Part shown: in pieces, positions 3,232 through 38,056 of the stretch | Numbering within the stretch: position 1 is the first letter of the stretch | How the letters are laid out: every line of letters begins with the position of its first letter | Assembly: GCA_018985235.1 (NCBI GenBank) | Contig: JADGIG010000022.1 | Coordinates: 1 to 42,016 of the forward strand | Source of the DNA: Sanchytrium tribonematis | Taxonomy: Eukaryota | Direction of reading: 5' to 3' | Length of the DNA: 42,016 nucleotides | Program-made: the position numbers and the translations under genes | The notes under the pieces: generated by a model | The model's database searches: none | Seen by the model: the letters and a program-made list of their open reading frames with translations, nothing else | Told to the model about the DNA's origin: nothing

Positions 3232-4318
3232 TTACAAGATTCCACTTTCTTTGAGCGCATTTTGCAAGATGGTGTCTTTAACAGCAGCAAAAACTAAATT
3301 AAACAAAAATACCAAGCCTGATATTCGACGTGTCAGTTGCGCAAGTCAAATGTGGATATATTTTAAGTTTAGCTCTATTTACATTAGAAAATTTTCCAAG
3401 GACATACTTCGTTGCTTTGTTAAAGTCGTCTCCGCCAGAATAATCTGGAAAATATTTCTCCAATGGAACTTGCGGTAATTTTGCCTTGAAAAGATCAACT
3501 TTGTTAAGAAACAAAATCATCGAAGATCTAACAAACCATCTCGAATTAATAACAGATTCAAATAATATGATCGATTCATTCATTCTGTTCTGTTTGCTAT
3601 CTTCTAGAAGTGATTGGTCATATTCAGATAAGGAAGTAATGAAAATGACAGATGTAACTCCTTCAAAACAATGAATCCATTTTTTACGTTCACTTCTTTG
3701 ACCACCAACGTCGAACATATGAATAGCCAGCTGTCCCATGTGAAACCTGGTTTCAACGATACCAGTAGTTTTAATACGAGCACGTAAAATATCTTGCTCA
3801 TTTGGTACATAATTGGATTGACAAATTCTCTTTACTTCAGAAAAGAAATAAGGAGCACTGTCAAGTAAATAAAATTCGCTTGATCTTTTCAATGCTTCCT
3901 GGACAACTGGATCAGCCCACAAAGAGGTAATAATATCCGCATGTTCTTGATTCAAGGAAAGTTGGTTGGTATCTTTTTGTCCTTCTGTCAATTCTTGAAA
4001 TCTTTTTGCTAATTTTTTGTTTTTTTCTACTCTCCAATTCAATCCAAGTTTTACCAACGCGTCAGTGAATAATTTGACACTCAATACTATATTGGCATAA
4101 ATTGTAGGTTTAAATGAAAGAGATTCTTGAGTATTATAACCATTCATATGTATGATTTTCATTTGTCGAACAATTGTGGATTTACCAGATTCACCAGCAC
4201 CGAGTAATAAAATTTTACATTCTCTTTTATACTTTTCAGCATCCCGTAAGAGCTGGTCTTCTATTTCTTGATTTCGTTTCTTTTGTCGTCGAATTTCACC
4301 AGAACATGCAGCTCCCAT
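3232..4318 (-). CDS. Heterotrimeric G-protein alpha subunit, fungal group III-like (355 aa, one intron)
   Basis: MGAAC lipidation motif, [21 protein letters not shown]. Splicing 3294-3312 restores the C-terminus RLVFAAVKDTILQNALKESGIL*. Confidence 0.95.
3294..3312 (-). other. 19-nt spliceosomal intron
   Basis: gtatttttgtttaatttag; removal restores the conserved G-alpha C-terminal helix. Confidence 0.95.
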
Positions 4319-4398: not shown

Positions 4399-5491
4399 TT
4401 ACAATATGAATTTCTTGAAAAGTTCGGTTATTTTGGAGGATCTCGAAGAATTTGGTACAACATAGGGTTGTAAAATTTTAAGTTTGGAAAGGCTACTTAG
4501 GGATGCCCTATTGTCCGGATTTTTATAAAGCATTTCTTTGATTATTATATGATAAGAAGAAGTCTCATCGGGGTAATTAGGCTCTAAGCTCGCCATTATT
4601 TCATACAAATCAGGTAAATTATCCGCATCCCATGGCAAACAGCCATGAAATAAGCAATACAAGGTCACACCTAAGGCAAATATATCTATTTTAGTTCCAT
4701 CGAGCCTTTTCTCTCTCCTTACCTCTGGTGGTGTAAATGCAGGTGTGGTTTCTTTTGGAGAATCAATAATTAGTTGCTTTCCGGAGGGGACACATATAGA
4801 CATTCCGAAATCGGTTAATTTGATATTTCCATTAAAGCATACAAGAATATTATCCGGCTTAATGTCACAGTGAATAATTCGATTGGAATGCAGGAAAGAA
4901 ACAGCGTTTAACATCTGGCCAAAAACCCTTAAACATTCCGTTGTTTGCAATGGCGAGGTTTTCATTTGTGATTCAATATGCATAACTGGGCCCGCACATA
5001 ATTCGAATACTGAGTTAACATGAAGTACTTAAATAAACTGCGTCTGATTTTTGGTCATCTAAAACGTCATATAGTTTCGTTATTCTAGGATGCTCAATTG
5101 CTTTTAAAATTTTGATTTCGTTCTCTAGAGATATACCGTAACTCCAAAAAGCATGGCGTTTTAGTAGTTTTCTAGAGATTACTTTGCACGCATAATGCTT
5201 ATGATCTATTGTGTTCAAAACTTGTAAAACCTTGCTGAACGAGCCTTGTCCTATAGTATTTAAAACGATATACTGATTAATGATGTCATACTGTGCAATT
5301 TTTGATGTCAGTAAAAATTTCTGCTGAGTAGCGGGCGTAGAATGGGTACGTATATGATTTGGATCAGAATATCGTCTGATGCCATTGTAACTGGGAACTC
5401 TTATATGTTCCCTATGCTCACTTGGTCTATGTAAATTAAGATATGAGCTGTTAAGTAAATCTTTTGAATCTTGTACTTCTTTTTGTTCCAT
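4399..5491 (-). CDS. Ser/Thr protein kinase, CaMKK/Ssp1-like (357 aa, one intron)
   Basis: INQYIVLNTIGQGSFSKV, ACK, LYDVLDD...VYL|IFELCAGPVM across the intron, HCDIKPDN, DFG, TPAFTPPE. Confidence 0.85.
5010..5028 (-). other. 19-nt spliceosomal intron
   Basis: gtacttcatgttaactcag; joins the two kinase-lobe ORFs in frame. Confidence 0.95.
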
Positions 5492-8134: not shown

Positions 8135-9243
8135 TCACATAATCCCAACATCCTTCAACGTATTGCTTACGATTGTATCTTTGACAGCATTAAATACGAC
8201 TCTTATGTTGCTAAATAAATTTAAATTACTTGGTATCCGTAGCACATGTTATGTGAGGGTATATTTTTAATTTTGCACGATTGACATTTGTAAATTTTGA
8301 TAAAATGTATTTCGCTGCTCTAGTGACATCATTTCCACCATTATAATCATCATAAAAATTTTCCAATGGAGATCGATCGAGTTTGTCTTTGAATGCGTCT
8401 GCTTTGTTCAAAAACAGTATAAGAGAGCTTTTTTGAAACCACCTCGAATTGATGACAGAATCAAATAGAGAAATCGATTCTTGCATTCTATTTTGGCTTG
8501 AATCCTCGAGTAGTGCTAAATCATAGTCTACAAGACTTACAAAAAATATCACGGAAGTAACAGCTTCAAAGCAATGGATCCATTTCTTTCTCTCACTTCT
8601 TTGCCCACCCACATCAAACATGCTATATCAGAAAAAGTTACTGTATGCTTAACCCTTGGACATTAAATTTTGTTTCGACTATTCCAGTCGTTTTTATCCT
8701 AACTCGTAAAATATCCTGTTCCGAAGGAACGTAGTTTTCATTGGCAATACGTTCCATTTCTTTAATATAATATGGCGTCGAATCTAACATGTAAAATTCA
8801 TTGGAACGATACATTGCCGTACTCGCAGAAGAATCTTCCCAAAGCTCTTTGATGGTTTCCATATGACTTTGTGTGAATTTCAATTCATCAGACTTTTTCA
8901 TATCCTCAAATTCTTGAAGTAGAGCCTCGCATTTTTGTCGGATTACATCAGAGGACCAGCCAATTTTCAGCTTATTTAAAATCCCATCATTGAGGAGCAT
9001 GATTCCAGTAAATATATTCATATATATTGAAGCCTTGAAGGCCAGGCATTCCTGTTTGGAGTAGCCATTCATATGCATAATTTTCATCTGTCTAACAATT
9101 GTTGATTTTCCAGACTCTCCTGATCCTAGTAGTAGTATCTTGGCTTCTTTCTTGAGATTTTCAGCATCTTTTTTCAAACCCTCTTCTATTTGAGAATTTT
9201 TTTGACGAGCAACATTTAAATCCGAAGAACTACACGCACCCAT
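8135..9243 (-). CDS. Heterotrimeric G-protein alpha subunit (356 aa, two introns)
   Basis: MGAC start, [53 protein letters not shown] after splicing. Confidence 0.95.
8211..8229 (-). other. 19-nt spliceosomal intron
   Basis: gtaatttaaatttatttag; restores the G-alpha C-terminus. Confidence 0.95.
8623..8641 (-). other. 19-nt spliceosomal intron
   Basis: gtaactttttctgatatag; phase 2 in the His codon preceding MFDVGGQ. Confidence 0.95.
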
Positions 9244-9304
9244 TTTAAGATTTGTTTCGAAACGCATAAACATATGGCTTTAATTATTTATTGTCAACAT
9301 TATC

Positions 9305-10957: not shown

Positions 10958-13900
10958 TTATTTTTGAATCAAAGAATCAATAATTTCATTGATTTCCTTT
11001 TTGCGGCTATCCAAATTAGTTTGAAATAGTCTGCTTAATTCTGTTCGAATATCTTTTTTAGAAACTTGCATCAAATCACTTGTACTTAAAATGCGATGGA
11101 CTTCTTGAATAAGTTCTTGATGGTTTGGAACTTCATCACCCATTTGCTGTGGACTAAAACTTTCATGATAACCCATGTCAACTTGAGATCCGTACATAGA
11201 CTGAGCCATCATTTCTTGATGCTGACGACTAGATATGACAGACCCATCTGGAAATTGGACCGGCTGCATAGGCATTTCTTGATATTGGCTTCCTAGCATC
11301 GAATCAGAGTAATTCATTGGAATGCCACTTGGCATAGGCTGAGACATGTAATCCATAGGTGGAATTTCATATGCAGAAGATCTGTAATCTGACTGTGATA
11401 TGCTGAATCCAGAGTTTCTATTGATTGCTTGCTGCTCCATTCCAGTGTGATGGCTAATTTGAGTTTTTCCTTCTTCGTCTTCCCATAAATCTTTCTCGTA
11501 ATCAGAAAATTTCTTATGTGGAATATGGGAAATGTCAAATAATTCATCATCTTTAGTATGAATTTGCTGCTTACTTCCTTCACCAATAACAATACGAGTA
11601 TTACCCCAACTAAAATCATCAAAATGCCAAAAACTGTAGATTGGAATAAAAAACCCAAATAAAGGCAATGCCAATAAGTAAACAAACATCCACATAATGT
11701 GCTGCCATTGTCTTCTCACAATAAATATAATAACTTGTAAACCATAAATGGCTGACAACATGATCAGAGAAATGATAGGAAACTGTTGAATGGTGGCCGT
11801 ACTGGAAACAAGTCCATAAATAACTTTTCCAATTAGATAGACTAGATACAAAACAGTCGCTGGTTGAATAATGGTACCAAATAAATCCAAAAACACAAAA
11901 AATCTCATTGAAAATATGCAAAAACCACACATATTATTCAAGGTAAGCAATTCGAATAAGTTATGGATTGTTGAATTAATCCATCTTCTTCTCTGTGATA
12001 ACAATACACTCCAAGATTCAGGCACGTGAGTCTCACAAACCGCATCAGGTGTAAATGTTGTTTTCATTTTTGGGAAATTTTTCAACATCAAAGTGGTCAA
12101 ATATCTATCTTCTCCGAGAGCCAACAGATTCTTTTTGTGAAGTGTATCCAGATTGATATCCGAATAAGCATCAACGATACTATCATGAATCAACAATGGC
12201 TGATTTTTGATTGGAGATCTTAACCGATACATACAAAAACAACCAGGCAAGCAAGTCACGGTTCCAAACATTCCTTCAAAAGCTTTGGATAAGTGATGAG
12301 AAATGAAGTATTCATAAGGCTGAATCATAGTTGCCCAACTTGCTTCTTCATTAGCCAATCTAGTTTCACCACAAGTTCCAACAACTGCCTTATCATTCGC
12401 CATAGTAGCAATCAATCTATTTAAAGAAAATGCATTTACGACTGTATCTGCATCCACATAAAACAAAAACTCATAAAAACTTGGATCAACACCAATCACA
12501 TTTTTCATTTGATGATACATTTCTAATTCTAAAGGTGACATTGGATTGTCAAAGAATACACGATTCAAAAATCTCATTAAAACCATTTGACTGTCTCTCT
12601 TACCTCTATTGCCAGGCTTAATCTTCTCATTAGGTTTTCCAACTTTGACAATGACTAAATATGGCACCAAATGACCAGAATGTTCGTAAAGCCCTGAAAA
12701 AACTTTGGCCATATTATGCTGCTTACTTCCTTCACCAACACTTTGGAAAGAGAGAGGCTCTGGATCCAAATTTGGATCAACACCCAAAATGTCAAGGACA
12801 ATTCTTGGCGTTGGTCGATCGTTACCACTACCAATAATCATACCATCACAAACAATGAATAGCAACTTTCGCTTGTCGTCATATTTCAATTCTGCTAAAG
12901 AATCAATCGTGCGCTTAAGACTTTCTTCACCTTCTGTGTAACATGGAACTTGCAAAATGACAAACTTGTCATAATCTTCTGGGTCTCCAGCAGATCTTAG
13001 AGGCAACGCAGCAGCAAATTTTACAGCAATAGTCAAGACTATCAAAGCGGATGCTGCTAATAATAAGGCACTTGTAAAGACACATTTATCTGATTGTCTT
13101 TCGTCCAACTTACCAGCAATAAACAAATTGTTAAAACAATCTCTGAGATCTTCATTCACGGACCATTGATCCATGAATTCAGGATCATTTGCGAAATCAC
13201 TACCTTTGTTCCTGTTAATCATACCTTCGAAATCTTGTAAAAAGTTTTTGCTTCCATCTTTGGTCGTGGCTGACTGAAAATAAACCGTGAAGTCGTAAAT
13301 TCTATCACCTAAAATAACCATATGTCTAGAATCTGTGTCCGCTACTGAGAGATCTCTAACCTGATTTCTTGAAAACCCCAAATGTGCAACAATTCCATAC
13401 GGGTCTTGCATATAAGTTTCTAAATTAGCTTCACCATCACCAATACCATTTTTATCTGCATTGTTGTAAATAGCCTTATGTTTTATTCTGATGGTTGAGC
13501 CTAACGGGTCATTAATTCGAACAAGGTCGAAATCATAATTGGCAAACTTACAAAAACCTCCAGGTGATCTACGGAAACCTTCTGTGACATCCTTTCCTGC
13601 AAATTGATCAACCAGGGCTGTGAACTGATGTAAATCGGGTCTAACTGACTTAAAATACTGTAAGTTGAAGATTGCACCATACACTGCCACTAAAGGGTAA
13701 GAATCATCAGTTTTAAATTGAAGTTCCTCCATGCTAAACATTTTTTGTTCTGGACATATAAGGGGAGCTAGACCAACGATAAAAAATAACGAAACAGCAC
13801 TCATCCAAAAAATAAGAATACATAAAGCCACTTTTTCTCTCCATGCCAGTTTAATGTCTTTACGTTTGGAATCAATGCAAATACAAAAAGAAGGGATCAT

Positions 13901-16324
13901 CCAGGTCAAACAATACACACAACAAAGCCATTTGCGTCTAGTAGAAGTCATTTTTTCTTCTTTCACATCATATTGGCCTGTTTGATTAATGTGGTTATGT
14001 ACTTCCAAACCTTTCATATCGTCTGCTCCTTGGTCACCACCGAGGTCTTGAAATTGATCTGTAAGTGCCATAGTAGATCCACGGTCGTCAATGCTTTCTT
14101 CTTCTTCGACTTCTACGAATGAGCGGTGAGCGTCAAAACTTAATTCAGATCGTTCGTCTTCTCCACCTCTAGATGAGCTAGTGCTTCTGCGTTTAGATGT
14201 CTCTTGACTTCTAATCTGGTCCTCAAAATATCTCCAACCAGCTTCGGTACAGTGAACAAATTCGTGGCCAATGAAAATTTGAGTTTGAAGCCAATCAAAA
14301 CCGTTAATGTAATTTTGAATACTTTCTCGTGCGCTACCTTGGGGCATCACGAATTCAGAATACTTATTAGCAAAATCATCAATGGAAATCTGAACCGTAA
14401 ATGGTGCCCTTGCTACCTGCTCTTGCTGAATCAAATCTGCAATTTTGAAAGATTTGACTTGATTTAATACACGTCGATCTTCGAAAAATTCAGCTTTGGG
14501 CTCATCAGACGGAGCAATACAAAAAATATACCAAGGAGACGTAGTTTCTAGTGTCTCAATAACATCTTCAAGTGATCCTAATAATTCAGATAACACAGTT
14601 GGATCAGCAGCTTTCTTTACACTTGGAGCTCTCTTTCGGCGAACGCTAGGCGTACGTACTGGCTTACTACCACCAAATCCACCAACAACAGTTTTTTCAT
14701 TTCGAGGATGAAATTTCACAGAAACTAATTTGTCCTGAAATAGATCGCTAACAAATGAACTTGGATTATTCTTGAAAAGTGAGATAAAGTCGGCAGATAT
14801 TGTTTCCAAATTCTTTTGGACAAACTCATTTGCTTCGTACACTACAGAACCACAATAATGGTCTACACCGAATGTGTTGGCTGTTTGAGTGGTAATATAG
14901 CCAGTCGTTTTAGTGTGATTTTTATGAATCAAATCAATCAAGTCATGAACAGTTTTGTTTGGATGATTTCTGCGAGTCTCTTGATTAACCAAGTGCAAAA
15001 TTCCATTTTCTTCATTGTTTAGCAAGCTCAATACTAATTGATTGTTGGATGTCAAATTTTTGATGTCTATAGGAAATCCATCTTGTTTCAATCTTTCATA
15101 ACGTTCCATTAAAGTTTTCCAGACAAAGTGTACTATGTTTTCATTGGTTGAATTTACGCAAAAATCGTAAAATTTTGATAGTTTCTTCTCTTTATGACCT
15201 GAAAAATTAAGAATCGCGATAATATTTGTAAATTCAGTCTTGCACAATCTATGGTTAATGGCTTCAACAATCCATGTGAACAAGAGACCGTACAAGGTTT
15301 TAGATAATGATTTAAGTTGAATTTTAGCGTCTTCCGCATTCAAAAATTTGGTGTAAACATCTCGACCGGAGAGTGCACTGGATGTCGTAAGTCCTTCAAG
15401 CAGGTCTTGAGAAGTGATCTCTAACAAGTCTGCAACAATATCTAATACATCAGTATTTTTGACTCGACATTGCTGATCTGCATGGTCCTTGGAATCTTCG
15501 AATTCGATCCTTGACAAGTGTAGAATTGAGGCAAGAAGTTGCCAAATTTTCATCTGAGTTTTCTTACCCATCCCGATAGATTTCATAGATGCTTGAAGAT
15601 CTTCAAATCTTACTTCATCGTTCCACTTTGGAATTGTGATTTGTCCTTGAGCTAAAATAGGGAAATGGTCGGGTGCTAATAAGTGGCACTTCTCTCGTAT
15701 TTCAGAGTCGGCCCCATTAAGTAAGTAATAAAACGCATGAAAGTTTCTTTCAGATGGCCCGAATGTTACCAATCTATCTTTGTCAAGCAAATAATCCAAT
15801 ACCTTCATTCCAATCATTTTGCCTCGTTCATTAAATTGGACCTCGGAAAAGAGGCCGTATCTAGAGCTGTCAACATCATCTTCAGTTTTAGCATTTCCAA
15901 ATGCCTCTAATACGGAAATGGCGGCCATCACTCTATTATGTGTCTTTTGGTCTTTCTTGGAATTCCCAGAAATAGCACAAATCTGTCTCAACACAGCATT
16001 GAGGTGCAGGGATTGACCAGCACCACTATCCCCAGAAAGTATGATTGATTGATCTTGCTTCAGTCGTCTTAAATGTAAATAGGCATTTGTAGCAATCGCA
16101 TAAACGTGAGGTTCAACTTTTGCCTCAATGTCCTTGTAGTTCTTAAAGTATTTCTTTTGAATCTTTTCATTAAATAGAGCATCTACATATTTGTGAGGAT
16201 GTAAGGCAACAATCAATGGACCCAGTTCAGTAAATATGTCGTCCTGGAAAAATCTTTGTTTCAATACATCCACAACATCTGCAGCCGGAACCTGCGTTAA
16301 ATTTCTCGGAGTAACGGAAGACAT
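10958..16324 (-). CDS. Chitin synthase with N-terminal myosin motor-like domain, cytochrome b5-like domain and C-terminal DEK-C domain (class V/VII type)
   Basis: Myosin motifs EPHVYAIA, LEAFGNAKT, ERNFHAFYYLL; WREKVALC; PCYTEG, GNRGKRDSQ, VDADT, TCLPGCF, LGEDRYLT, SQRRRW, FSWGNTR. Intronless; first ATG at 16324. Confidence 0.95.
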   Translation of the reverse strand: MSSVTPRNLTQVPAADVVDVLKQRFFQDDIFTELGPLIVALHPHKYVDALFNEKIQKKYFKNYKDIEAKVEPHVYAIATNAYLHLRRLKQDQSIILSGDSGAGQSLHLNAVLRQICAISGNSKKDQKTHNRVMAAISVLEAFGNAKTEDDVDSSRYGLFSEVQFNERGKMIGMKVLDYLLDKDRLVTFGPSERNFHAFYYLLNGADSEIREKCHLLAPDHFPILAQGQITIPKWNDEVRFEDLQASMKSIGMGKKTQMKIWQLLASILHLSRIEFEDSKDHADQQCRVKNTDVLDIVADLLEITSQDLLEGLTTSSALSGRDVYTKFLNAEDAKIQLKSLSKTLYGLLFTWIVEAINHRLCKTEFTNIIAILNFSGHKEKKLSKFYDFCVNSTNENIVHFVWKTLMERYERLKQDGFPIDIKNLTSNNQLVLSLLNNEENGILHLVNQETRRNHPNKTVHDLIDLIHKNHTKTTGYITTQTANTFGVDHYCGSVVYEANEFVQKNLETISADFISLFKNNPSSFVSDLFQDKLVSVKFHPRNEKTVVGGFGGSKPVRTPSVRRKRAPSVKKAADPTVLSELLGSLEDVIETLETTSPWYIFCIAPSDEPKAEFFEDRRVLNQVKSFKIADLIQQEQVARAPFTVQISIDDFANKYSEFVMPQGSARESIQNYINGFDWLQTQIFIGHEFVHCTEAGWRYFEDQIRSQETSKRRSTSSSRGGEDERSELSFDAHRSFVEVEEEESIDDRGSTMALTDQFQDLGGDQGADDMKGLEVHNHINQTGQYDVKEEKMTSTRRKWLCCVYCLTWMIPSFCICIDSKRKDIKLAWREKVALCILIFWMSAVSLFFIVGLAPLICPEQKMFSMEELQFKTDDSYPLVAVYGAIFNLQYFKSVRPDLHQFTALVDQFAGKDVTEGFRRSPGGFCKFANYDFDLVRINDPLGSTIRIKHKAIYNNADKNGIGDGEANLETYMQDPYGIVAHLGFSRNQVRDLSVADTDSRHMVILGDRIYDFTVYFQSATTKDGSKNFLQDFEGMINRNKGSDFANDPEFMDQWSVNEDLRDCFNNLFIAGKLDERQSDKCVFTSALLLAASALIVLTIAVKFAAALPLRSAGDPEDYDKFVILQVPCYTEGEESLKRTIDSLAELKYDDKRKLLFIVCDGMIIGSGNDRPTPRIVLDILGVDPNLDPEPLSFQSVGEGSKQHNMAKVFSGLYEHSGHLVPYLVIVKVGKPNEKIKPGNRGKRDSQMVLMRFLNRVFFDNPMSPLELEMYHQMKNVIGVDPSFYEFLFYVDADTVVNAFSLNRLIATMANDKAVVGTCGETRLANEEASWATMIQPYEYFISHHLSKAFEGMFGTVTCLPGCFCMYRLRSPIKNQPLLIHDSIVDAYSDINLDTLHKKNLLALGEDRYLTTLMLKNFPKMKTTFTPDAVCETHVPESWSVLLSQRRRWINSTIHNLFELLTLNNMCGFCIFSMRFFVFLDLFGTIIQPATVLYLVYLIGKVIYGLVSSTATIQQFPIISLIMLSAIYGLQVIIFIVRRQWQHIMWMFVYLLALPLFGFFIPIYSFWHFDDFSWGNTRIVIGEGSKQQIHTKDDELFDISHIPHKKFSDYEKDLWEDEEGKTQISHHTGMEQQAINRNSGFSISQSDYRSSAYEIPPMDYMSQPMPSGIPMNYSDSMLGSQYQEMPMQPVQFPDGSVISSRQHQEMMAQSMYGSQVDMGYHESFSPQQMGDEVPNHQELIQEVHRILSTSDLMQVSKKDIRTELSRLFQTNLDSRKKEINEIIDSLIQK

Positions 16325-19700: not shown

Positions 19701-20336
19701 AAACGAGCAAAAAAAGTGGTTATTCAGAGATTGTCGCATCCGTTGCCAAGGTACAAATTTTTAATTTAGGATATTGTCGAAAAAAATAAAAAAAGAGATC
19801 AACGTAAACAAGATTATTTGAAGTTAACCGAGACTATTGAACATTTAAAATCTAAATTGACTTATTTGGAATCTCAAAGGGACCAATACAAGACATATAT
19901 AGACAGTTGTTTAAATAGCATGCAAAATAAGAACAAGTCGAAAAAACAACCACTGCCTCTTACGAAACAATATTATCATCAGAAAAAAGTTCAGAAAGAA
20001 AGTGGAAGATTGCCACAATTTGGTTCTTACAAGTATACTGCTAGACAGCTGCAAGAAAAAGGTGTCCTTATTTCTATTGATCATCCCGAAGTATCGGTTA
20101 AACAATATGACAAGATCGATATCACTATATCCTCAGATGAAGCTGGTGTCTTTGATGTTTCAGTGTCTTATTCTCCAGTTAAGGGTCTAGTTGTTGTTCA
20201 AGAGAAAGAGCAAGTAAGATTGGACGACCTTTTGCAAAACCAATTCGAGGGCCAAACTGTTGTCGAGCTATTCGATATGGCGAAATGTAATATTAATCTA
20301 TTGATCCATTTGATTAACAAAAAGTTTTATGCATAA
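16799..20336 (+). CDS. IQG1: IQGAP (CH domain, IQ repeats, RasGAP-related domain, RasGAP_C; 1172 aa, one intron)
   Basis: AYEYLCHIGEAKQWIE, LQFRHSDNIN, DLYDKKNIPKVIY, IQ motifs, YGIRY, FFRYINPAVVAPE, FGSYKYTARQLQEKGVL, NINLLIHLINKKFY. Confidence 0.95.
19751..19769 (+). other. 19-nt spliceosomal intron
   Basis: gtacaaatttttaatttag; phase 0, gives VAK|DIVEKNKKRDQR in frame with the downstream ORF. Confidence 0.95.
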
Positions 20337-27081: not shown

Positions 27082-28456
27082 ATGAATTTTGAATTAAAGA
27101 AGTTCAATCCTTTTAAAAAGAAAGCAGCCAGTGAGAAATTGACCACTAACAGAAGTATTGAACAAGTAAATTTTAAAGATTCAGAGTCAACCTTAAAATT
27201 ACCAATTGACATCAGCGCCAGTACCTTACTTAAAGAGGATGAAAGCTATCCGATAGGTGGTGTAGCTGAGCGTGAGAAAAGATTTCAGGAGGTGTTGGAT
27301 ATCCTTTCTGGGAAAAAATTAAAAAAAGAGCTTGAAAAATATAAATTACTGAACTTTTTAGGAGATGGTACATATGGTTTTGTGTTGGCTGGGATTTGCA
27401 AAAGACATGGTGAAGTTGCAATTAAGTTTGTATTTAGACACAAAGTTAATACTAAAAACTGGGTTCATGACAAAAATCTTGGCTTTGTATCAAACGAAAT
27501 TCATTTTTTGTCAAAACTGCATCACCCAAATATTATCAAATATATTGAACACTTTGAGACACAGGACTACATAATCATAATTACCGAAATGTTTGGTTGT
27601 GAATGGAAACCTGGTTCAAAACACTTTCAACCAAATGGTATCAATGAAGGAATCAAATTGGTCGACGATAAAAATATTTTTAAGCCGGGTAGCTCTGATG
27701 AACATACACTTACATCTTTAGACTGGAATTCAAAGTCAAAGCTGAAACCCAGAGTCTCTTGTGATTTGTTTGAATGTGTAGATGCACATGAATATTTACC
27801 TGACAGAACCATCAGAAAAATATTTTCCCAATTAGCGTCTGCTATATTGTACCTCCAAATGAATAACATCGTTCATAGAGATTTGAAAGACGAGAACATT
27901 GTGGTGGACGAGTTTTATAGAATAAGATTGATAGATTTTGGTTCTGCTAGCTTCATTCCGGATGATCCAAAACAATATTTTGATAGGTTTTTAGGCACTG
28001 TAGACTTCGCAAGCCCTGAAATCCTGAAAGGATGTCAGTATAGAGGCCCTGAAGCCGAAATGTGGGCTTTAGGTGTTATACTTTATGTTTTGTTTTCCAG
28101 AAACATACCATTTAGAAATTTGAGAGAATCGGAAAGGGCGAATTTTGATGTTCTTCCAAGAATGAATTCTAGTATTCGTTATTTACATAGACGTAGTTCA
28201 TCTTCTGCGACGAATGCTGGAGCCAAATCTGTATAAAAGAGCCACAATATTTGAAATAATTGCCCATCCGTGGCTAAGGGGCGAAGGAAGTTGCTTGACA
28301 GAGGAGGAAATTAAGACTTCACAATCAGAGATAAAGAAAAGCGGACATTGGAACGGATCAATACCTTTAGTTCTTAGGCATGAAAATTCACCCAAACTAT
28401 CCGAAATTTTAAAAACTCACGCTACGAATCACGCAATGGAATCGATTATGGAATAA
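27082..28456 (+). CDS. Ser/Thr protein kinase, PASK/PIM-like catalytic domain without a PAS domain (451 aa, one intron)
   Basis: LGDGTYGFV, VAIKF, DLFECV, HRDLKDENIVVD, LIDFGSA, GTVDFASPEILKGCQYRGPE; splicing restores NVVHLLRRMLEPNLYKRATI. Confidence 0.88.
28172..28190 (+). other. 19-nt spliceosomal intron
   Basis: gtattcgttatttacatag; restores kinase subdomain XI. Confidence 0.93.
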
Positions 28457-28517: not shown

Positions 28518-29888
<1,371 letters not shown>

Positions 29889-29987: not shown

Positions 29988-32537
29988 ATGGCTCGTGAAG
30001 CGATTGAAACGACCGTCTTGTTTATTTTTGAATCTTTAATAGCATCAGAAGAATTTTGTTTTTTCAAAGGGATGCAACAAATATTCTCAAATATTGTTGA
30101 ACGCATTCCAACTGACACCATCGATAAAATTTCTATTGAAAACTGTAAATGTCATGTGTTTTTTTCACATCCTTGGTTGCCTTATGTTCTATTTGATGAG
30201 AATTCCGTTCAATTGCAATTTTATAATTTGCACCTCGACGTTTTGATGCAATTCCAAGAGGCTTTTGAGTGTCTATCATCATTTCGTGCCAAAAATAATC
30301 CATCAATCATCGCCGGGTTTATTGTAGGTTTAGCTGAGTGTTTCCAGATTGAAGATGCAAGTATTGAATCATTAGACAGAATGTTACTCTCTCGAAAAAT
30401 TCATGGCAATATTCAATCATTGTTTAAGCGCACTACCGATCGCGAAGACAATCATTTAGCGACGCTTGATAGGTTAAACGGAGTTTTAAATGAGAATTTT
30501 GTAAATTTACCAAATTTACCTTATATTGTGCAAACTATTTATGGAGTATTGCAGCCAAGACCACCAATTTGGCTTCACAGACAAGCGGGAAGATACTTAC
30601 CGGAATACATGGACCTTAAAGGTACAAAAAATTTCTTAGAATTGACCGCTTCTCCCTCAACTGCATCGACTATAACTCTTCAGCCTATATGGAGGTATGG
30701 AGTAGATGCAGCTATCATTTTCTCAGATATAATGGTAATTCCACAAGCTCTCGGTATGACTTTGGAAATGAGACCCGGTCCCTATTTTCCGCATCCTATC
30801 GCTGTTGAGAAAGACGTTGATGACTTGGTTTATAATCCGATAATTTTAAATCACGTTTATGAAGCACTTAAGCAAACTAAAAAAGGCCTTACCGAATATG
30901 ACACAAAAACTTACGGCACACATCATACTGCCCTAATTGGTTTTTGCGGTGCTCCATGGACAGTTATGTCTTACATGGTTGGACGCGAAAAGTCTGTAGA
31001 TTTTCTGAAACAGAATCCCGAATTATCGCACAAGATGCTAAGAAAACTCTGCGATGTTGCTGTTGATTATCTTTGCAAACAAGTAGAGGCAGGTGCGGAT
31101 TTGGTTCAAGTATTTGATTCGTTCGTAGGAGAGTTACCCGATGATTTGTATATTGAATTTGAAAAGCCATATCTTTGTGAAATAGCGGAAAAATTTTCAA
31201 AAAGATGTCCTACCTCTCCAATTCAGTTATTCCCTCGAGACTTGAAGCCTAGTTTAATTTTAGATCTAGCTAAAAATTCAAAATACTGGACATTTAGTGT
31301 TTCTCAAAATTTTCAGGAAGATTCTATTAAACAATTCCCACTTTCTACTTGCATTCAAGGTAATTTGGATCCTGATCACATGTATTTGGACGAACAGATG
31401 ATTAGAGAAAAAACCTGTAAGATGGTTTCGATGTTCAAAAATTCGCTACAATCCATTAGAGCAAGATATACTGTTAATTTAGGACATGGTACAAAGCCCG
31501 ATATGGATCCAGTGAAAGTCGGTTATTTTATTGACGAGGTCCGATCTCTTTTTCTAGGTACACGTAAATCACCGCTAGCTTTAGCTCAAGCAATGAGCAT
31601 ACAAAGTTGCTTTCTCAAATCTCCATTTACCATCAAGACATTCGAATGTGTCACCAAGGGTGACAAGGTTCTCGATAGATCTCTCAGTGAAATTGGCGAC
31701 AAAGGATTGTTTACACGTGAAATAGAAAGCAAAATTTTAGAAGGTAAAATTGATTTTGCTCAACATTCATTAAAGGACCTTGAGACTAAATTGCAGCCTG
31801 GGCTTTCTATTGGTGCTTATTCCAAAAGATGTAATGAATTTGATTGCATGATATTTTCTTCTGTTCAAAGTTGGAAGAATATGAACGACTTGCCTAATGG
31901 TGCTATTATTGGTACCAGCTCACTACGAAGATCCGCTTTTGTGACTCACAATTGGCCCCACTTGGTTGTTAAAACTATAAGAGGAACTGTTGGAACACGT
32001 CTCAGAAAACTTTTAGTAGATAAGCAGTATGATGCTCTTATACTCGCGCAAAGTGGCTTAGAAAGATTATTTGAGTATGATAAGGATCTTGCAAACTCGC
32101 TGCCAGGATTCCAGAAAGTTGAACTGAGGACATTTTATGCTGCTGGGCAGGGATGTATAGCTCTCGAATTGTCTTCAGCAAATTATTCGCTCTCAAAATG
32201 TCTCAAGACATATGTGGAACTTCCTGAGGATGCTATAAAAGTCCAAAGTGAAAGGAAAGTTTTAGAGGCAATTGAAGGTGGATGCCAAGTACCATTTGGA
32301 GTCCGATTGGATAAATATGATATGAAATGTAATCAGTATTCAGAGGCTAAATTATTACAACGATTTTCTCCCTCTTTTAGAGTACCTGAAAATTTTCAGT
32401 TTTCATCTTATGTCTACGACTCAGAATCGATGACATTTGAACAATTTGAAAATCTAAATTTTCATGATATGCTTCTGGAATTGAAAAAAACCAAAGCCAT
32501 TGAAAAAGTTAAGACTGCAAGGAATAAAAATTGTTGA
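29988..32537 (+). CDS. Fusion protein: unknown ~190-aa N-terminal domain + uroporphyrinogen decarboxylase (HemE/HEM12) + porphobilinogen deaminase (HemC/HEM3)
   Basis: UROD: PIWLHRQAGRYLPEY, DAAIIFSDIMVIP, LIGFCGAPWT, QVFDS, QGNLDP, NLGHG. PBGD: GTRKSPLALAQ, GDKGLFTREIE, HSLKD, GTSSLRR, GQG, EGGCQVP. Confidence 0.93.
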   Translation: MAREAIETTVLFIFESLIASEEFCFFKGMQQIFSNIVERIPTDTIDKISIENCKCHVFFSHPWLPYVLFDENSVQLQFYNLHLDVLMQFQEAFECLSSFRAKNNPSIIAGFIVGLAECFQIEDASIESLDRMLLSRKIHGNIQSLFKRTTDREDNHLATLDRLNGVLNENFVNLPNLPYIVQTIYGVLQPRPPIWLHRQAGRYLPEYMDLKGTKNFLELTASPSTASTITLQPIWRYGVDAAIIFSDIMVIPQALGMTLEMRPGPYFPHPIAVEKDVDDLVYNPIILNHVYEALKQTKKGLTEYDTKTYGTHHTALIGFCGAPWTVMSYMVGREKSVDFLKQNPELSHKMLRKLCDVAVDYLCKQVEAGADLVQVFDSFVGELPDDLYIEFEKPYLCEIAEKFSKRCPTSPIQLFPRDLKPSLILDLAKNSKYWTFSVSQNFQEDSIKQFPLSTCIQGNLDPDHMYLDEQMIREKTCKMVSMFKNSLQSIRARYTVNLGHGTKPDMDPVKVGYFIDEVRSLFLGTRKSPLALAQAMSIQSCFLKSPFTIKTFECVTKGDKVLDRSLSEIGDKGLFTREIESKILEGKIDFAQHSLKDLETKLQPGLSIGAYSKRCNEFDCMIFSSVQSWKNMNDLPNGAIIGTSSLRRSAFVTHNWPHLVVKTIRGTVGTRLRKLLVDKQYDALILAQSGLERLFEYDKDLANSLPGFQKVELRTFYAAGQGCIALELSSANYSLSKCLKTYVELPEDAIKVQSERKVLEAIEGGCQVPFGVRLDKYDMKCNQYSEAKLLQRFSPSFRVPENFQFSSYVYDSESMTFEQFENLNFHDMLLELKKTKAIEKVKTARNKNC

Positions 32538-32559: not shown

Positions 32560-34518
32560 ATGCTGAAGTATTTGCGCAACCAACAAAAAAATCAGCAAAA
32601 GAGATTAGAAAGAATAAAAGTCTATGAATCCAAAGAAGAGTCAGAACTAAACGAAGATCAGAAAAGTTCTATTAGAGAAATACCAAGAATTGAATTTTAC
32701 CTAGGCAAGTTGACAGAAATGATGCAATTGATGGAAGCAGAGGAATCTGAACATGTTGAAAAGATCAAAAATCTTCAAGAAGATGTCGATAGGGTCAAAT
32801 TAGAATTACAGGAAGTGCAAATAACAACTGAAAACGAGAGGCTTGTGAAAAAAATCCTATATATGATTCTAAGACTGTATAACATGCCACTAACTGAACC
32901 AGAACTGGCTACGTGTCAATCTTTAGAGCGTCAGATCAATTTGGATAAAAATGGGTATTCAACATCAGATGTTATCGACAGACTAAAAAAAGAAGAACAT
33001 TTTTTGACTGTTCTTTACACAAGATATTTCAAAGATAGTTCTATGAAAAATTCTAAAGATAAGGCCGTGGTTGGATCTTCTTGGAATATTTCTGAAGGAA
33101 AATCTATGTTCTCAGCTACCACGCTTCCCCAACAACTTAAGAACAAAAAGCTTTTGATTCACTTCGCAGGTCCTCATGGGACTGACATTATTCACGCATG
33201 CGTAGAAAGCTTGTCGGAATTAAGTGGTAAATTCGATTTCTCATTGCACGATATAAGCATTCATCGAGCGTGGCATGATGTACAAGTGGTGATTTGTTTA
33301 ACTGTATCACAGTTAGACTCGCAACTCTTGTTGGACAAGTTTGATCAAATGGCAATTGACTGGCACGGTCAATATCACATTCAAGTTTTAGATAATGCGG
33401 AATATCAATTTAATAGTGCCCCTTACCCTAAGAGATCAAAATACTTAGTCACCGTATTAACAAAAAACAGAGATGTTAATGCGTTTGATGTTTTATCCTC
33501 TCTTACTAGCTTTATTTCTGTATGCCTAGGAAACAAAGTCAGTATTGAGATAATGAAATCACTTAATAGGGATAACACTGCATGGGACATCAGAGTAAGT
33601 TGCGAAAAGGACTATTATTCAATAAGGAAGGCTTTATTTTCCGCTTTAAAAGAAAAAGGGATGGGAATTGATGTGGCAATCACTCCTTTGACGGTGTACC
33701 GAAAGCAAAGAAGATTGATTGTCTTTGATATGGACAGTACTTTAATTCAGCAAGAAGTAATTGACGAATTGGCTCGGGAATACGGTGTTTACGAAAAGGT
33801 TCAAGAAATTACACATCAAGCAATGGCTGGAAAATTAGAATTTAAAGACTCCCTTAAAAATCGCGTCGAAATGCTAAAGGGCGCTCCAATTTCTATTATC
33901 GAAAAGGTTAAGCAACGAATTCGTTTGACTCCAGGAGCTAAAGAATTATGCTTTCTGTTGAAACGTCTTGGATTTCAAATTTGTGTCCTAAGTGGTGGTT
34001 TCGAGCCATTTATTGAACATTTGCAAACAATTTTACCTATAGATCATTATTTCGCGAATAAATTTACCTATGAAGAGGTTGACGGAGAGCAAATAATATC
34101 TGGAGTTCATGGAGAAATAGTGGACGGAAATAGAAAAGCAGATTTAATGAAAATCCTTGCACAAGCGCACCATTTATCTCTGAGTCAGGTAATATGCATC
34201 GGTGATGGTTCTAATGATATTCCGATGCTTAAGGCAGCTGGTTTAGGTATTGCGTTTAAAGCGAAAGACGTTGTCCAAGCTGAAATCGAATCTAAATTGA
34301 GCGGTAGTCTATTAGATGTCATGTATCTCATGGGCTATGATCAAGACGAGATCGAAGAACTCTTGGCCCAAGAAAATTTTCACGGTGTTCACTTAGGACA
34401 CCAAAAATCTAGAAGGCCTTATAAATCTTACAACAAACCCAAAAATGTAAATGAAAAAGGAAAAGACAATTTGGATCACAAAAAGCATTCCAAAAAGGCA
34501 CACAAGAAACATGATTAA
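32560..34518 (+). CDS. SER2: Phosphoserine phosphatase (ACT-like domains + HAD domain) with a coiled-coil N-terminal extension and a basic tail
   Basis: RLIVFDMDSTLIQQEVIDELA, ITHQAMAGKLEF, LTPGA, LSGGF, IGDGSNDIPML, GLGIAF. Confidence 0.9.
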   Translation: MLKYLRNQQKNQQKRLERIKVYESKEESELNEDQKSSIREIPRIEFYLGKLTEMMQLMEAEESEHVEKIKNLQEDVDRVKLELQEVQITTENERLVKKILYMILRLYNMPLTEPELATCQSLERQINLDKNGYSTSDVIDRLKKEEHFLTVLYTRYFKDSSMKNSKDKAVVGSSWNISEGKSMFSATTLPQQLKNKKLLIHFAGPHGTDIIHACVESLSELSGKFDFSLHDISIHRAWHDVQVVICLTVSQLDSQLLLDKFDQMAIDWHGQYHIQVLDNAEYQFNSAPYPKRSKYLVTVLTKNRDVNAFDVLSSLTSFISVCLGNKVSIEIMKSLNRDNTAWDIRVSCEKDYYSIRKALFSALKEKGMGIDVAITPLTVYRKQRRLIVFDMDSTLIQQEVIDELAREYGVYEKVQEITHQAMAGKLEFKDSLKNRVEMLKGAPISIIEKVKQRIRLTPGAKELCFLLKRLGFQICVLSGGFEPFIEHLQTILPIDHYFANKFTYEEVDGEQIISGVHGEIVDGNRKADLMKILAQAHHLSLSQVICIGDGSNDIPMLKAAGLGIAFKAKDVVQAEIESKLSGSLLDVMYLMGYDQDEIEELLAQENFHGVHLGHQKSRRPYKSYNKPKNVNEKGKDNLDHKKHSKKAHKKHD

Positions 34519-36848: not shown

Positions 36849-36929
36849 ATTAGGGCAATTGTTGTAATAAATCCAAATCATTTGCTTATGATAACGACCT
36901 CAAAAAATTTACTTTCACTAGCCACTTTT

Positions 36930-38056
36930 ATGGGAGCCATTTGTTCTTCAACAGAACAGAAAAAGTCCCAAGTTATTGATAAACAACTCGCGATTGATGC
37001 AGAGAAATATAAACAGGAAGTAAAATTATTATTATTAGGCGCGGGAGAATCCGGTAAATCTACTATTGTTCGACAGATGAAAATTATTCATATGAATGGA
37101 TATCCACCTAAAGAAGCTATTTTATTTAAACCCGTTATTTTTAACAATATAATTCTTAATATGTCACTATTTCAAGACGGTTTGGATTCAATGGGATTAA
37201 AATGGAAGAGACGCGAAAATGAAAAAACTGCGAACGACCTTCATCATGAATTTGGAAGACACAAAATCCAACAAGATGACAGAAGACTATCTACACTAAA
37301 TGAGCAAATAGTTTTATCATCCAAACATGCTGTGACTTTAAAAAAATTATGGGAGGATCCAATTGTTAATGAAGCTATGAGTAGGCGAAATGAATTTTAT
37401 TTGCCTGATAGTGCTCAATATTATTTTCAAAATATAGAAAGAATATGTTCATCAGATTATACACCTACTCCAGAAGATATTTTGAGAGTGAGAAAGAAAA
37501 CTACAGGAATTGTCGATACTAGATTTAGAATGGATAAAATTAGAGTTCAGTAATTTATAATAATATAGCATGTTCGATGTTGGCGGCCAAAGAAGCGAGA
37601 GAAGGAAATGGATACATTGTTTTGAGGGCGTCACAATGGTCATTTTTGTTACCTCTTTAAGTGAATACGATCAAACCTTATTGGAAGATGCCAGAGTTAA
37701 TCGCATGGTTGAGTCCATATCTCTTTTTGATAGCGTGGTGAATTCCAGGTGGTTTAGCAGGTCTTCTATGGTTGTTTTATTGAACAAAATTGATATATTT
37801 AAGGAAAAATTACTCATTAGTCCTTTAAGGCGATTTTATCCTGATTTTGACGGGGATCAAGATCCTAGCTTAGCTTGCAAATTTATATTATCAAAATTTA
37901 CAGCCGTGAATAGAGCCAAACTCAAAATATACCCGCACGTCACTTGCGCCACTGATACTAAAAATATAAAACTTGGTACCAAATATTAACGTAGTTTTCG
38001 CTGCTATTAAAGACACTATTTTGCAAAACTCTCTGAAAGTGTCAGGAATATATTAG
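36930..38056 (+). CDS. Heterotrimeric G-protein alpha subunit, group III-like (362 aa, two introns)
   Basis: [52 protein letters not shown]. Confidence 0.95.
37550..37568 (+). other. 19-nt spliceosomal intron
   Basis: gtaatttataataatatag; same position as the 8623-8641 intron in the paralog. Confidence 0.95.
37976..37994 (+). other. 19-nt spliceosomal intron
   Basis: gtaccaaatattaacgtag; same position as the 3294-3312 intron in the paralog. Confidence 0.95.

What the first reader, a model, noticed from the sequence alone, without database searches (positions are those of the whole stretch)
29988..32537. Seamless UROD-PBGD (HemE-HemC) heme-pathway fusion with an extra unknown N-terminal domain
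Seen: one 849-aa ORF has ~190 aa of unrecognised sequence, a complete uroporphyrinogen decarboxylase (RQAGRY, FSD, LGHG) and, with essentially no linker (GYFIDEVRSLFLGTRKS), a porphobilinogen deaminase retaining HSLKD, SSLRR and the cofactor Cys (GGC). Established: these enzymes act on either side of uroporphyrinogen III synthase (HemD/HEM4) and are separate genes in model fungi and animals; without UROS, hydroxymethylbilane cyclises to the dead-end isomer I. Inference: a metabolon-type fusion, in which the N-terminal domain might be a very divergent UROS, a docking domain, or a captured neighbouring gene.
Basis: partly seen in the sequence, partly recalled or inferred. Interest (0 to 1): 0.75.

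Follow-up and report, generated by a model that had tools for sequence, protein, structure and literature searches.

The report
Three-part heme enzyme fusion in fungi
One fungal gene joins two heme-making enzymes end to end behind a front piece that is likely a worn-out, inactive copy of a third heme enzyme, and the same layout turns up across one early branch of water-living fungi.

Summary
One uninterrupted 849-aa ORF carries an intact uroporphyrinogen decarboxylase (UROD, aa ~175-519) running directly into an intact porphobilinogen deaminase (PBGD, aa 520-849). It is not a one-off. Its nearest named relative is from the sanchytrid Amoeboradix gromovi (58%), and orthologs occur in five Blastocladiomycota genera, all with the same junction length. 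In those orthologs the N-terminal domain is a decayed coproporphyrinogen III oxidase (CPOX/Hem13; HHalign 99.7%) lacking most invariant residues. The window's ~172-aa domain is most likely a further-eroded relic of it. It sits in the same place in an orthologous protein, yeast CPOX is the top structural match for a low-confidence model (Z 6.6), and a weak profile signal exists, but Pfam, HHalign and HMMER do not detect it. Nothing supports a divergent UROS. Amoeboradix has a separate HEM13. So the gene is likely a bifunctional UROD-PBGD with a pseudo-CPOX cap that still needs a separate UROS. UROD-PBGD fusions also occur in a choanoflagellate and unnamed metagenomic proteins, one with an intact CPOX. 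No report of the fusion was found in ten literature searches, but three relevant papers could not be read.

The parts
29988..32537 (+). Single ORF, 849 aa: CPOX-like relic + UROD + PBGD
   Evidence: orthologs
29988..30503 (+). N-terminal domain aa 1-172, likely an eroded, inactive coproporphyrinogen III oxidase relic; 39-43% identical (aa 33-172) among three sanchytrid-type proteins
30171..30473 (+). aa 62-162, the part that aligns weakly to the CPOX profile; the conserved RGIGG strand falls in a gap and the R262-bearing segment is not aligned
   Evidence: 0, 0 and 3 of 500 shuffles reach the score; aa 1-62 give no signal
30510..31544 (+). UROD (HemE/Hem12) domain aa ~175-519; R198, R202, D247, Y329, S378, H500 align to human R37, R41, D86, Y164, S219, H339
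   Evidence: model matches UROD at Z 41.6, rmsd 1.9, 326 aligned
31509..31565 (+). Linker-free junction: predicted last UROD helix (508-519) runs into the first PBGD strand (520-526)
   Evidence: NLGHG-to-G[ST]RxS spacing is 22 aa in 14 of 14 blastoclad/sanchytrid-clade proteins and 25-30 in the 15 other fusions measured
31545..32534 (+). PBGD (HemC/Hem3) domain aa 520-849; R526, K596, D597, R647, R648, R665, R671 and cofactor C766 kept; human Q153 and N169 replaced by F651 and T667
   Evidence: model matches E. coli HemC at Z 31.6, rmsd 2.3, 283 aligned, 518-849
28518..29864 (-). Neighbour: beta-tubulin, divergently oriented, 123 bp upstream; context only
32560..34518 (+). Neighbour: HAD hydrolase (phosphoserine-phosphatase-like by recalled resemblance), 22 bp downstream; context only

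Best explanation
This is one gene encoding UROD fused without a linker to PBGD, both with their catalytic residues and so predicted to be active, behind a ~172-aa domain that is likely an inactive relic of coproporphyrinogen III oxidase, likely inherited from a three-enzyme CPOX-UROD-PBGD fusion in the common ancestor of Blastocladiomycota and Sanchytriomycota. The PBGD domain would make hydroxymethylbilane and release it. A separate, probably unannotated UROS would cyclise it to uroporphyrinogen III (inferred). The UROD domain would decarboxylate that, and a separate Hem13 would do the oxidase step (annotated in Amoeboradix, inferred for this organism). The fusion would work by co-expression and proximity, not by direct hand-over. 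The relic is conserved among sanchytrids and is likely kept as a structural or assembly cap.
For: Orthology: the window's UROD groups with P0002 and Amoeboradix inside a 12-row blastoclad clade at 100/100, and the junction spacing is identical in 14 of 14. Of 11 close relatives (P0002-P0012), 8 hit PF01218 at the N-terminus, 4 of them above the gathering score. Eight of these N-termini match 19 intact CPOX domains at HHalign 99.7%, E 8e-26. An independent CPOX HMM shows graded erosion: 83, 71, ~41, 33, 30, 30, 24 and 20.5 bits, then 3.3 (P0011) and 2.9 (Amoeboradix). The nine relics keep 13-23 of 54 near-invariant CPOX positions and none keeps the R262 or D400 equivalents. An AlphaFold model of aa 1-185 built from three sanchytrid-type rows only ranks yeast CPOX first of 48,161 chains (Z 6.6, rmsd 5.5, 119 aligned). 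Leishmania CPOX is rank 10 and bilin reductases (same fold, recalled) take ranks 2, 3, 6, 7 and 9. Custom profile score against CPOX is 22.8, reached by 0, 0 and 3 of 500 shuffles; against HemD it is 10.3, at null level. The Amoeboradix annotation lists a separate HEM13 (E 3e-105) and a single UROD/PBGD row, the fusion (PMC8371127 supplement rows). An intact CPOX-UROD-PBGD protein exists (P0141/P0013).
Against: Standard tools do not link the window's N-terminus to CPOX: no Pfam hit, HHalign probability below 1%, HMMER -2.1 bits, phmmer against PDB nothing relevant, Foldseek nothing at E 0.001. The model has pLDDT 48, and Z 6.6 is within the range that chance folds reach and is tied with unrelated rows (Mediator subunit Z 6.0). 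The custom test was built after HHalign failed, with gap costs I chose (two settings). The window's sequence alone is matched or beaten by 10 of 149 unrelated segments, and the sanchytrid profile does not match the blastoclad relic profile (7 of 60 shuffles). The organism's own genome was not available, so its HEM13 and HEM4 were not seen. No activity or transcript data.
Confidence: 0.7

Rival explanations
1. The sanchytrid N-terminal domain is unrelated to CPOX: the relic was lost and replaced by a lineage-specific docking or targeting domain.
For: No significant match by Pfam, HHalign, HMMER or Foldseek. RWD, MotA-C and Mediator folds score within about 1 Z of CPOX.
Against: Same position in an orthologous protein. 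CPOX is ranked first without any CPOX row in the input. A motif resembling CPOX YVEFNLLYDR is present in P0002 and P0003 in the right order. No free-standing homolog of the domain was found among 84 shorter candidates.
Confidence: 0.17
2. The fusion makes uroporphyrinogen III by itself: the N-terminal domain, or the PBGD-UROD interface, replaces UROS.
For: KOG4132 (UROS) is 0 in all 4 sanchytrid and blastoclad genomes of the PMC8371127 table, and in both choanoflagellates. No HEM4, COG1587 or K01719 row was found in the Amoeboradix annotation. The full model suggests a fixed UROD-PBGD orientation (pTM 0.71).
Against: No HemD signal. The table's zeros are unreliable: Dictyostelium and Acanthamoeba also score 0 but have HemD entries in the PMC4870792 supplement. 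UROS is poorly conserved and often unannotated (PMC13564367).
Confidence: 0.06
3. The N-terminal domain is still an active CPOX, making the protein trifunctional.
For: The window has D161-R162 where human D400-R401 align. Intact triple fusions exist (P0141).
Against: The domain is 172 aa against about 295. The RGIGG strand is gapped and the R262 segment is unaligned. The DR pair is DK and DY in the two closest relatives. A separate HEM13 is annotated in Amoeboradix.
Confidence: 0.04
4. An assembly or gene-calling artefact joins two or three neighbouring genes in a very compact genome.
For: Intergenic gaps here are tiny (22 bp downstream), and no RNA run was available to check.
Against: The same architecture and junction length occur in independent genomes of six named genera. 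There are no stops, and the window's 19-nt introns would break the frame.
Confidence: 0.02

Closest known systems
Blastocladiomycota CPOX-like/UROD/PBGD proteins (KAI9143088.1 Paraphysoderma, KNE57841.1 Allomyces macrogynus, KAL7750783.1 Sorochytrium, KAJ1507812.1 Coelomomyces) and Amoeboradix EP00835_P002773
   Same: Domain order, 22-aa junction spacing, UROD clade (100/100), non-catalytic-looking N-terminal domain
   Different: The window's N-terminal domain is shorter (172 against 246-395 aa) and no longer detected as CPOX. Database names for these proteins mention only UROD or 'hypothetical protein'.
Intact CPOX-UROD-PBGD triple fusion in unnamed metagenomic records (P0141/P0013; P0295/P0254 with decayed UROD)
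   Same: Same three domains in the same order; sister group in the UROD tree at only 80/74
   Different: CPOX is complete with its invariant motifs; junction spacing 25; source organism unknown; common origin neither shown nor rejected
UROD-PBGD fusions of other eukaryotes (P0143 Barroeca monosierra; unnamed P0144-P0147, P0173, P0188; probably Monosiga XP_001749392.1, whose eggNOG groups include both COG0407 and COG0181)
   Same: UROD followed by PBGD with a short junction
   Different: No CPOX-like cap in the three N-terminally complete ones (P0143-P0145); junction 3-8 aa longer; they do not group with the fungal clade in the best trees
Bacterial heme-gene fusions: HemC-HemE (Propionicimonas and similar), HemD-HemE, CobA-HemC-HemD, HemF-HemE
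   Same: Pathway enzymes joined in one chain
   Different: Reverse order or other partners; they fall among bacterial sequences in the trees; independent
Stand-alone human/yeast UROD (Hem12), PBGD (Hem3), CPOX (Hem13)
   Same: Folds and catalytic residues of UROD and PBGD
   Different: Separate genes; pull-downs gave no evidence of complexes among the cytosolic enzymes (PMC13564367 passage)

Membership tests
Uroporphyrinogen decarboxylase (PF01208) | Full-length TIM-barrel URO-D domain | tested here: met
   279 bits, profile 7-345 of 346; Z 41.6, rmsd 1.9, 326 aligned
Uroporphyrinogen decarboxylase (PF01208) | Active-site R37, R41, D86, Y164, S219, H339 (roles recalled) | tested here: met
   All six align; positions
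Uroporphyrinogen decarboxylase (PF01208) | Activity and homodimer formation | not testable with these tools
Porphobilinogen deaminase (PF01379/PF03900) | Three-domain HemC fold including the C-terminal domain | tested here: met
   Z 31.6, rmsd 2.3, 283 aligned over 518-849; PF03900 alone is below its cut-off
Porphobilinogen deaminase (PF01379/PF03900) | Cofactor Cys, catalytic Asp and arginine cradle (roles recalled) | tested here: met
   C766, D597, R526, R647, R648, R665, R671; Q153 and N169 replaced
Coproporphyrinogen III oxidase (PF01218) as an active enzyme | About 295-aa domain with the invariant PTxHxNxR, RGIGGxFFD and RRxRYVEFNL motifs | tested here: not met
   172 aa; no Pfam hit; motifs gapped or eroded; blastoclad relics keep 13-23 of 54 invariant sites
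Coproporphyrinogen III oxidase fold (as a relic) | CPOX-type antiparallel sheet flanked by helices | tested here: inconclusive
   Top match yeast CPOX, Z 6.6, rmsd 5.5, 119 aligned, from a pLDDT-48 model; tied with other rows
Coproporphyrinogen III oxidase fold (as a relic) | Orthologous position occupied by a recognisable CPOX domain | tested here: met
Uroporphyrinogen III synthase (HemD/HEM4, PF02602) | Sequence or fold similarity to HemD | tested here: inconclusive
   No signal against a 28-row bacterial HemD profile or Pfam; UROS is too divergent and the model too weak for this to exclude it
Uroporphyrinogen III synthase (HemD/HEM4, PF02602) | Isomer III formation from hydroxymethylbilane | not testable with these tools
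   Needs an isomer assay or hem4 complementation

The most novel reading that the evidence does not exclude
The protein is the core of a cytosolic heme assembly line: the dead CPOX domain is a pseudo-enzyme dock that recruits the separate Hem13 (CPOX is a homodimer) or a cryptic UROS onto a rigid UROD-PBGD scaffold. In the boldest form, these fungi need no canonical UROS at all.
Probability: 0.15. Interest if true: 0.78.

Novelty: new variant of a known kind. Interest (0 to 1): 0.52.

Why it matters
It is a natural single-chain version of the cytosolic heme enzymes, for which no complexes were found in mammalian pull-downs (PMC13564367 passage). That makes it a direct handle on whether PBGD, UROS, UROD and CPOX act as an assembly and how isomer I is avoided. 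It offers a graded series of enzyme-to-pseudoenzyme decay, from intact CPOX through recognisable relics to a near-invisible one. It is also a candidate shared gene-fusion character for Blastocladiomycota plus Sanchytriomycota, alongside the BeGC1 fusion (PMC8371127 passage). Automated annotation hides it by naming these proteins UROD only. The individual chemistry is ordinary.

Tried and rejected
No whole genome is held, so HEM4, HEM13 and stand-alone HEM3/HEM12 could not be searched in this organism. No RNA holder was listed. ESM Atlas gave no usable hit for aa 1-175, and a second query could not be run. A shorter-protein search for the N-terminal domain gave 0 of 84 candidates. HHalign of the three sanchytrid-type N-termini against blastoclad relics, intact CPOX and HemD found nothing significant. 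Foldseek found nothing at E 0.001. No HemD chain is among the 50 VIA rows shown, which does not exclude it. Residues 1-62 match none of four profiles (152-478 of 500 shuffles reach the score). The idea that the intact triple fusion is a giant-virus gene got no support: viral scans with P0141 and P0144 found no relative, nor did a metagenome scan, so their source stays unknown. A motif scan of metagenome contigs gave one stand-alone UROD. Origin tests were uninformative. UROD: fungal-vertical p-AU 0.38, single origin of all fusions 0.28. CPOX relics with fungal CPOX 0.24, with the intact triple fusion 0.37, long branches throughout. PBGD: blastoclads plus sanchytrids at 53/88. Earlier findings of the scan: none.

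Full report
Observation. window:29988-32537(+) is one 849-aa frame. Pfam finds URO-D at aa 181-520 and PBGD at 522-732, with a sub-threshold C-domain hit at 750-772 and nothing on aa 1-180. Alignments to the human enzymes show all six recalled UROD active-site residues, and the PBGD cofactor cysteine, catalytic aspartate and arginines; two conserved positions differ (F651, T667). A full-length AlphaFold model (12 rows, pLDDT 74.5, pTM 0.71) matches UROD at Z 41.6 and HemC at Z 31.6. It shows the last UROD helix continuing into the first PBGD strand, while aa 1-180 are mostly under pLDDT 50. The pTM suggests a fixed orientation of the two enzymes; that is inference.

Setting. The window is a gene-dense, 31-40% GC eukaryotic sequence with beta-tubulin, myosin-chitin synthase, G-alpha genes and IQGAP. 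Of eight ORF breaks tested, five have a 19-nt GT..AG intron that restores a plausible frame. One DNA run holds the region in one contig, but it may be the source.

Relatives. A search limited to 466-1486-aa proteins scored 7,993 candidates, found 217 and listed 120. Twelve of the 120, the query included, have UROD followed by PBGD. They are P0002 (unnamed, 60%), P0003 (Amoeboradix gromovi, Sanchytriomycota, 58%), Paraphysoderma, Allomyces, Sorochytrium, two Blastocladiella species, Coelomomyces, two further unnamed proteins (41-45%) and P0013. Five more have the reverse order, one named Propionicimonas. A profile search of 1.84 billion representatives found 39,598 proteins at E 0.001 and listed 150; I scanned 30 of these plus P0141 against Pfam. 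This added eight UROD-then-PBGD proteins, one named as the choanoflagellate Barroeca monosierra. Among everything held, 37 proteins have both domains, 31 in the window's order; none of the ORFs of 89 viral and prokaryotic loci does. The spacing from NLGHG to G[ST]RxS is 22 aa in 14 of 14 blastoclad/sanchytrid-clade proteins (four are Allomyces near-copies) and 25-30 in the 15 others measured. In a 58-row UROD tree (LG+G4; L007 and L057 left out) the window groups with P0002 and Amoeboradix (100/100) inside a 12-row blastoclad clade (100/100). The PBGD tree agrees only weakly (53/88). The gene is therefore an ortholog of a lineage-wide fusion.

The N-terminal domain. Eight of the 11 close relatives hit Pfam Coprogen_oxidas there, four above the cut-off; P0002, P0003 and P0011 do not. 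Their profile matches 19 intact CPOX domains at 99.7%, and Paraphysoderma hits human CPOX at E 6e-15. They keep 13-23 of 54 near-invariant positions and lack the equivalents of human R262 and D400. The human numbering is inferred from the alignment plus recall. The catalytic role of these residues rests on a title in a reference list; the paper was not held. For the window's own domain, standard searches are blank. Three weaker lines point to CPOX. First, its position in an orthologous protein. Second, a model built from three sanchytrid-type rows alone (pLDDT 48) ranks yeast CPOX first among 48,161 chains (Z 6.6, rmsd 5.5, 119 aligned), with Leishmania CPOX tenth; by the tool's own note, such a Z can be chance. 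Third, a long-gap profile alignment of my own scores 22.8 against CPOX, reached by 0, 0 and 3 of 500 shuffles, while HemD scores at null level. That test was devised after HHalign failed, and the window's sequence alone is matched by 10 of 149 unrelated segments. Together I put CPOX descent at about 75-80%. The domain is 39-43% identical among the three sanchytrid-type proteins, against 64-68% for UROD and 50-52% for PBGD, so it appears to be maintained.

Rest of the pathway. In the supplement of PMC8371127 (rows seen) the Amoeboradix fusion is annotated simply as UROD, and a separate HEM13 is listed. The KOG table gives CPOX 1, 2, 2, 1 and UROS 0, 0, 0, 0 for Amoeboradix, Sanchytrium, Allomyces and Catenaria. 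ALAD, PPOX and ferrochelatase are present in all four, and the siroheme methyltransferase in none. The UROS zeros are weak evidence: Dictyostelium and Acanthamoeba also score 0 yet have HemD entries elsewhere, and UROS often escapes annotation. The Sanchytrium sheet was cut when stored and two supplementary files were unreadable; these may bear on HEM4.

Mechanism. Shown: one ORF, two intact-looking enzymes, a conserved linker-free junction, and a decayed CPOX in blastoclad orthologs. Inferred: activity of both enzymes, CPOX descent and inactivity of the window's cap, separate UROS and Hem13, and a structural role for the cap. Hydroxymethylbilane cyclises to isomer I without UROS, UROD accepts isomer I, and CPOX accepts only isomer III (PMC13564367 sections 7.5 and 9.1 read, 7.6 passage). 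Direct channelling from PBGD to UROD would therefore waste precursor, so proximity and joint expression are more plausible. With no siroheme branch detected, all uroporphyrinogen III could go to UROD, which may have permitted the fusion (speculation).

Origin. An intact CPOX-UROD-PBGD protein exists in unnamed metagenomic records (P0141/P0013), as do relatives with intact CPOX and decayed UROD (P0295/P0254). They are sister to the fungal clade at only 80/74. AU tests reject neither a fungal-vertical origin nor a single origin of all fusions. The origin is unresolved.

Literature. Ten searches returned no listing that describes this fusion. Seen as passages: PMC11914136, PMC8233740, PMC7242693, PMC9730499, PMC10459994. 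PMC5115734 had no occurrence of the terms. Seen as passages plus supplement searches: PMC8219788, PMC4870792, PMC8371127. Seen as passages plus two sections: PMC13564367. Not held: Leonard and Richards 2012 on fungal gene fusions, the 2022 review of haem pathway history, and Stephenson 2007; the first two could mention it.

Verdict. A real, lineage-wide and apparently undescribed variant built from known enzymes, with the unknown domain most likely a CPOX pseudoenzyme and not UROS. Interest 0.52.

Noticed in passing
window ~8622-8640, ~37551-37569, ~5000-5020, ~19765-19785, ~28180-28200: Five of eight ORF breaks tested are repaired by a GT..AG intron of exactly 19 nt, two of them at the same codon in two G-alpha paralogs. 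That is unusually short and uniform for a fungus (recalled comparison). 'Intron' occurs only in the reference lists of PMC8371127 and PMC10459994. No RNA check was possible.
   Followed up: partly
P0295, P0254, P0156 (unnamed ENA proteins): P0295 and P0254 have a CPOX with intact motifs (P0254 only its C-terminal part), a decayed UROD and a PBGD. P0156 has an intact UROD with a ~115-aa extension and lies on a contig of the same listed length as P0254. This may be reciprocal decay of a duplicated triple fusion.
   Followed up: partly
P0012 (Allomyces javanicus): A paralog with the CPOX relic and UROD but no PBGD, suggesting fission or truncation after duplication.
   Followed up: no
L002:9914-12027; L007:3719-6366: Viral contigs carry separate adjacent heme genes: hemC-hemE on a 400-kb contig, and hemE, a hemB-like ORF and hemC near phage baseplate-like genes (hemB and baseplate labels by recalled resemblance).
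   Followed up: no
window 32560-34518: HAD hydrolase (Pfam aa 385-561) with a long unrecognised N-terminal region and a basic tail; possibly another fusion or two merged genes.
   Followed up: no
window 3299-4318, 8226-9273, 36888-37989: Three G-alpha paralogs within 42 kb, plus a myosin-motor chitin synthase at 10958-16324.
   Followed up: no
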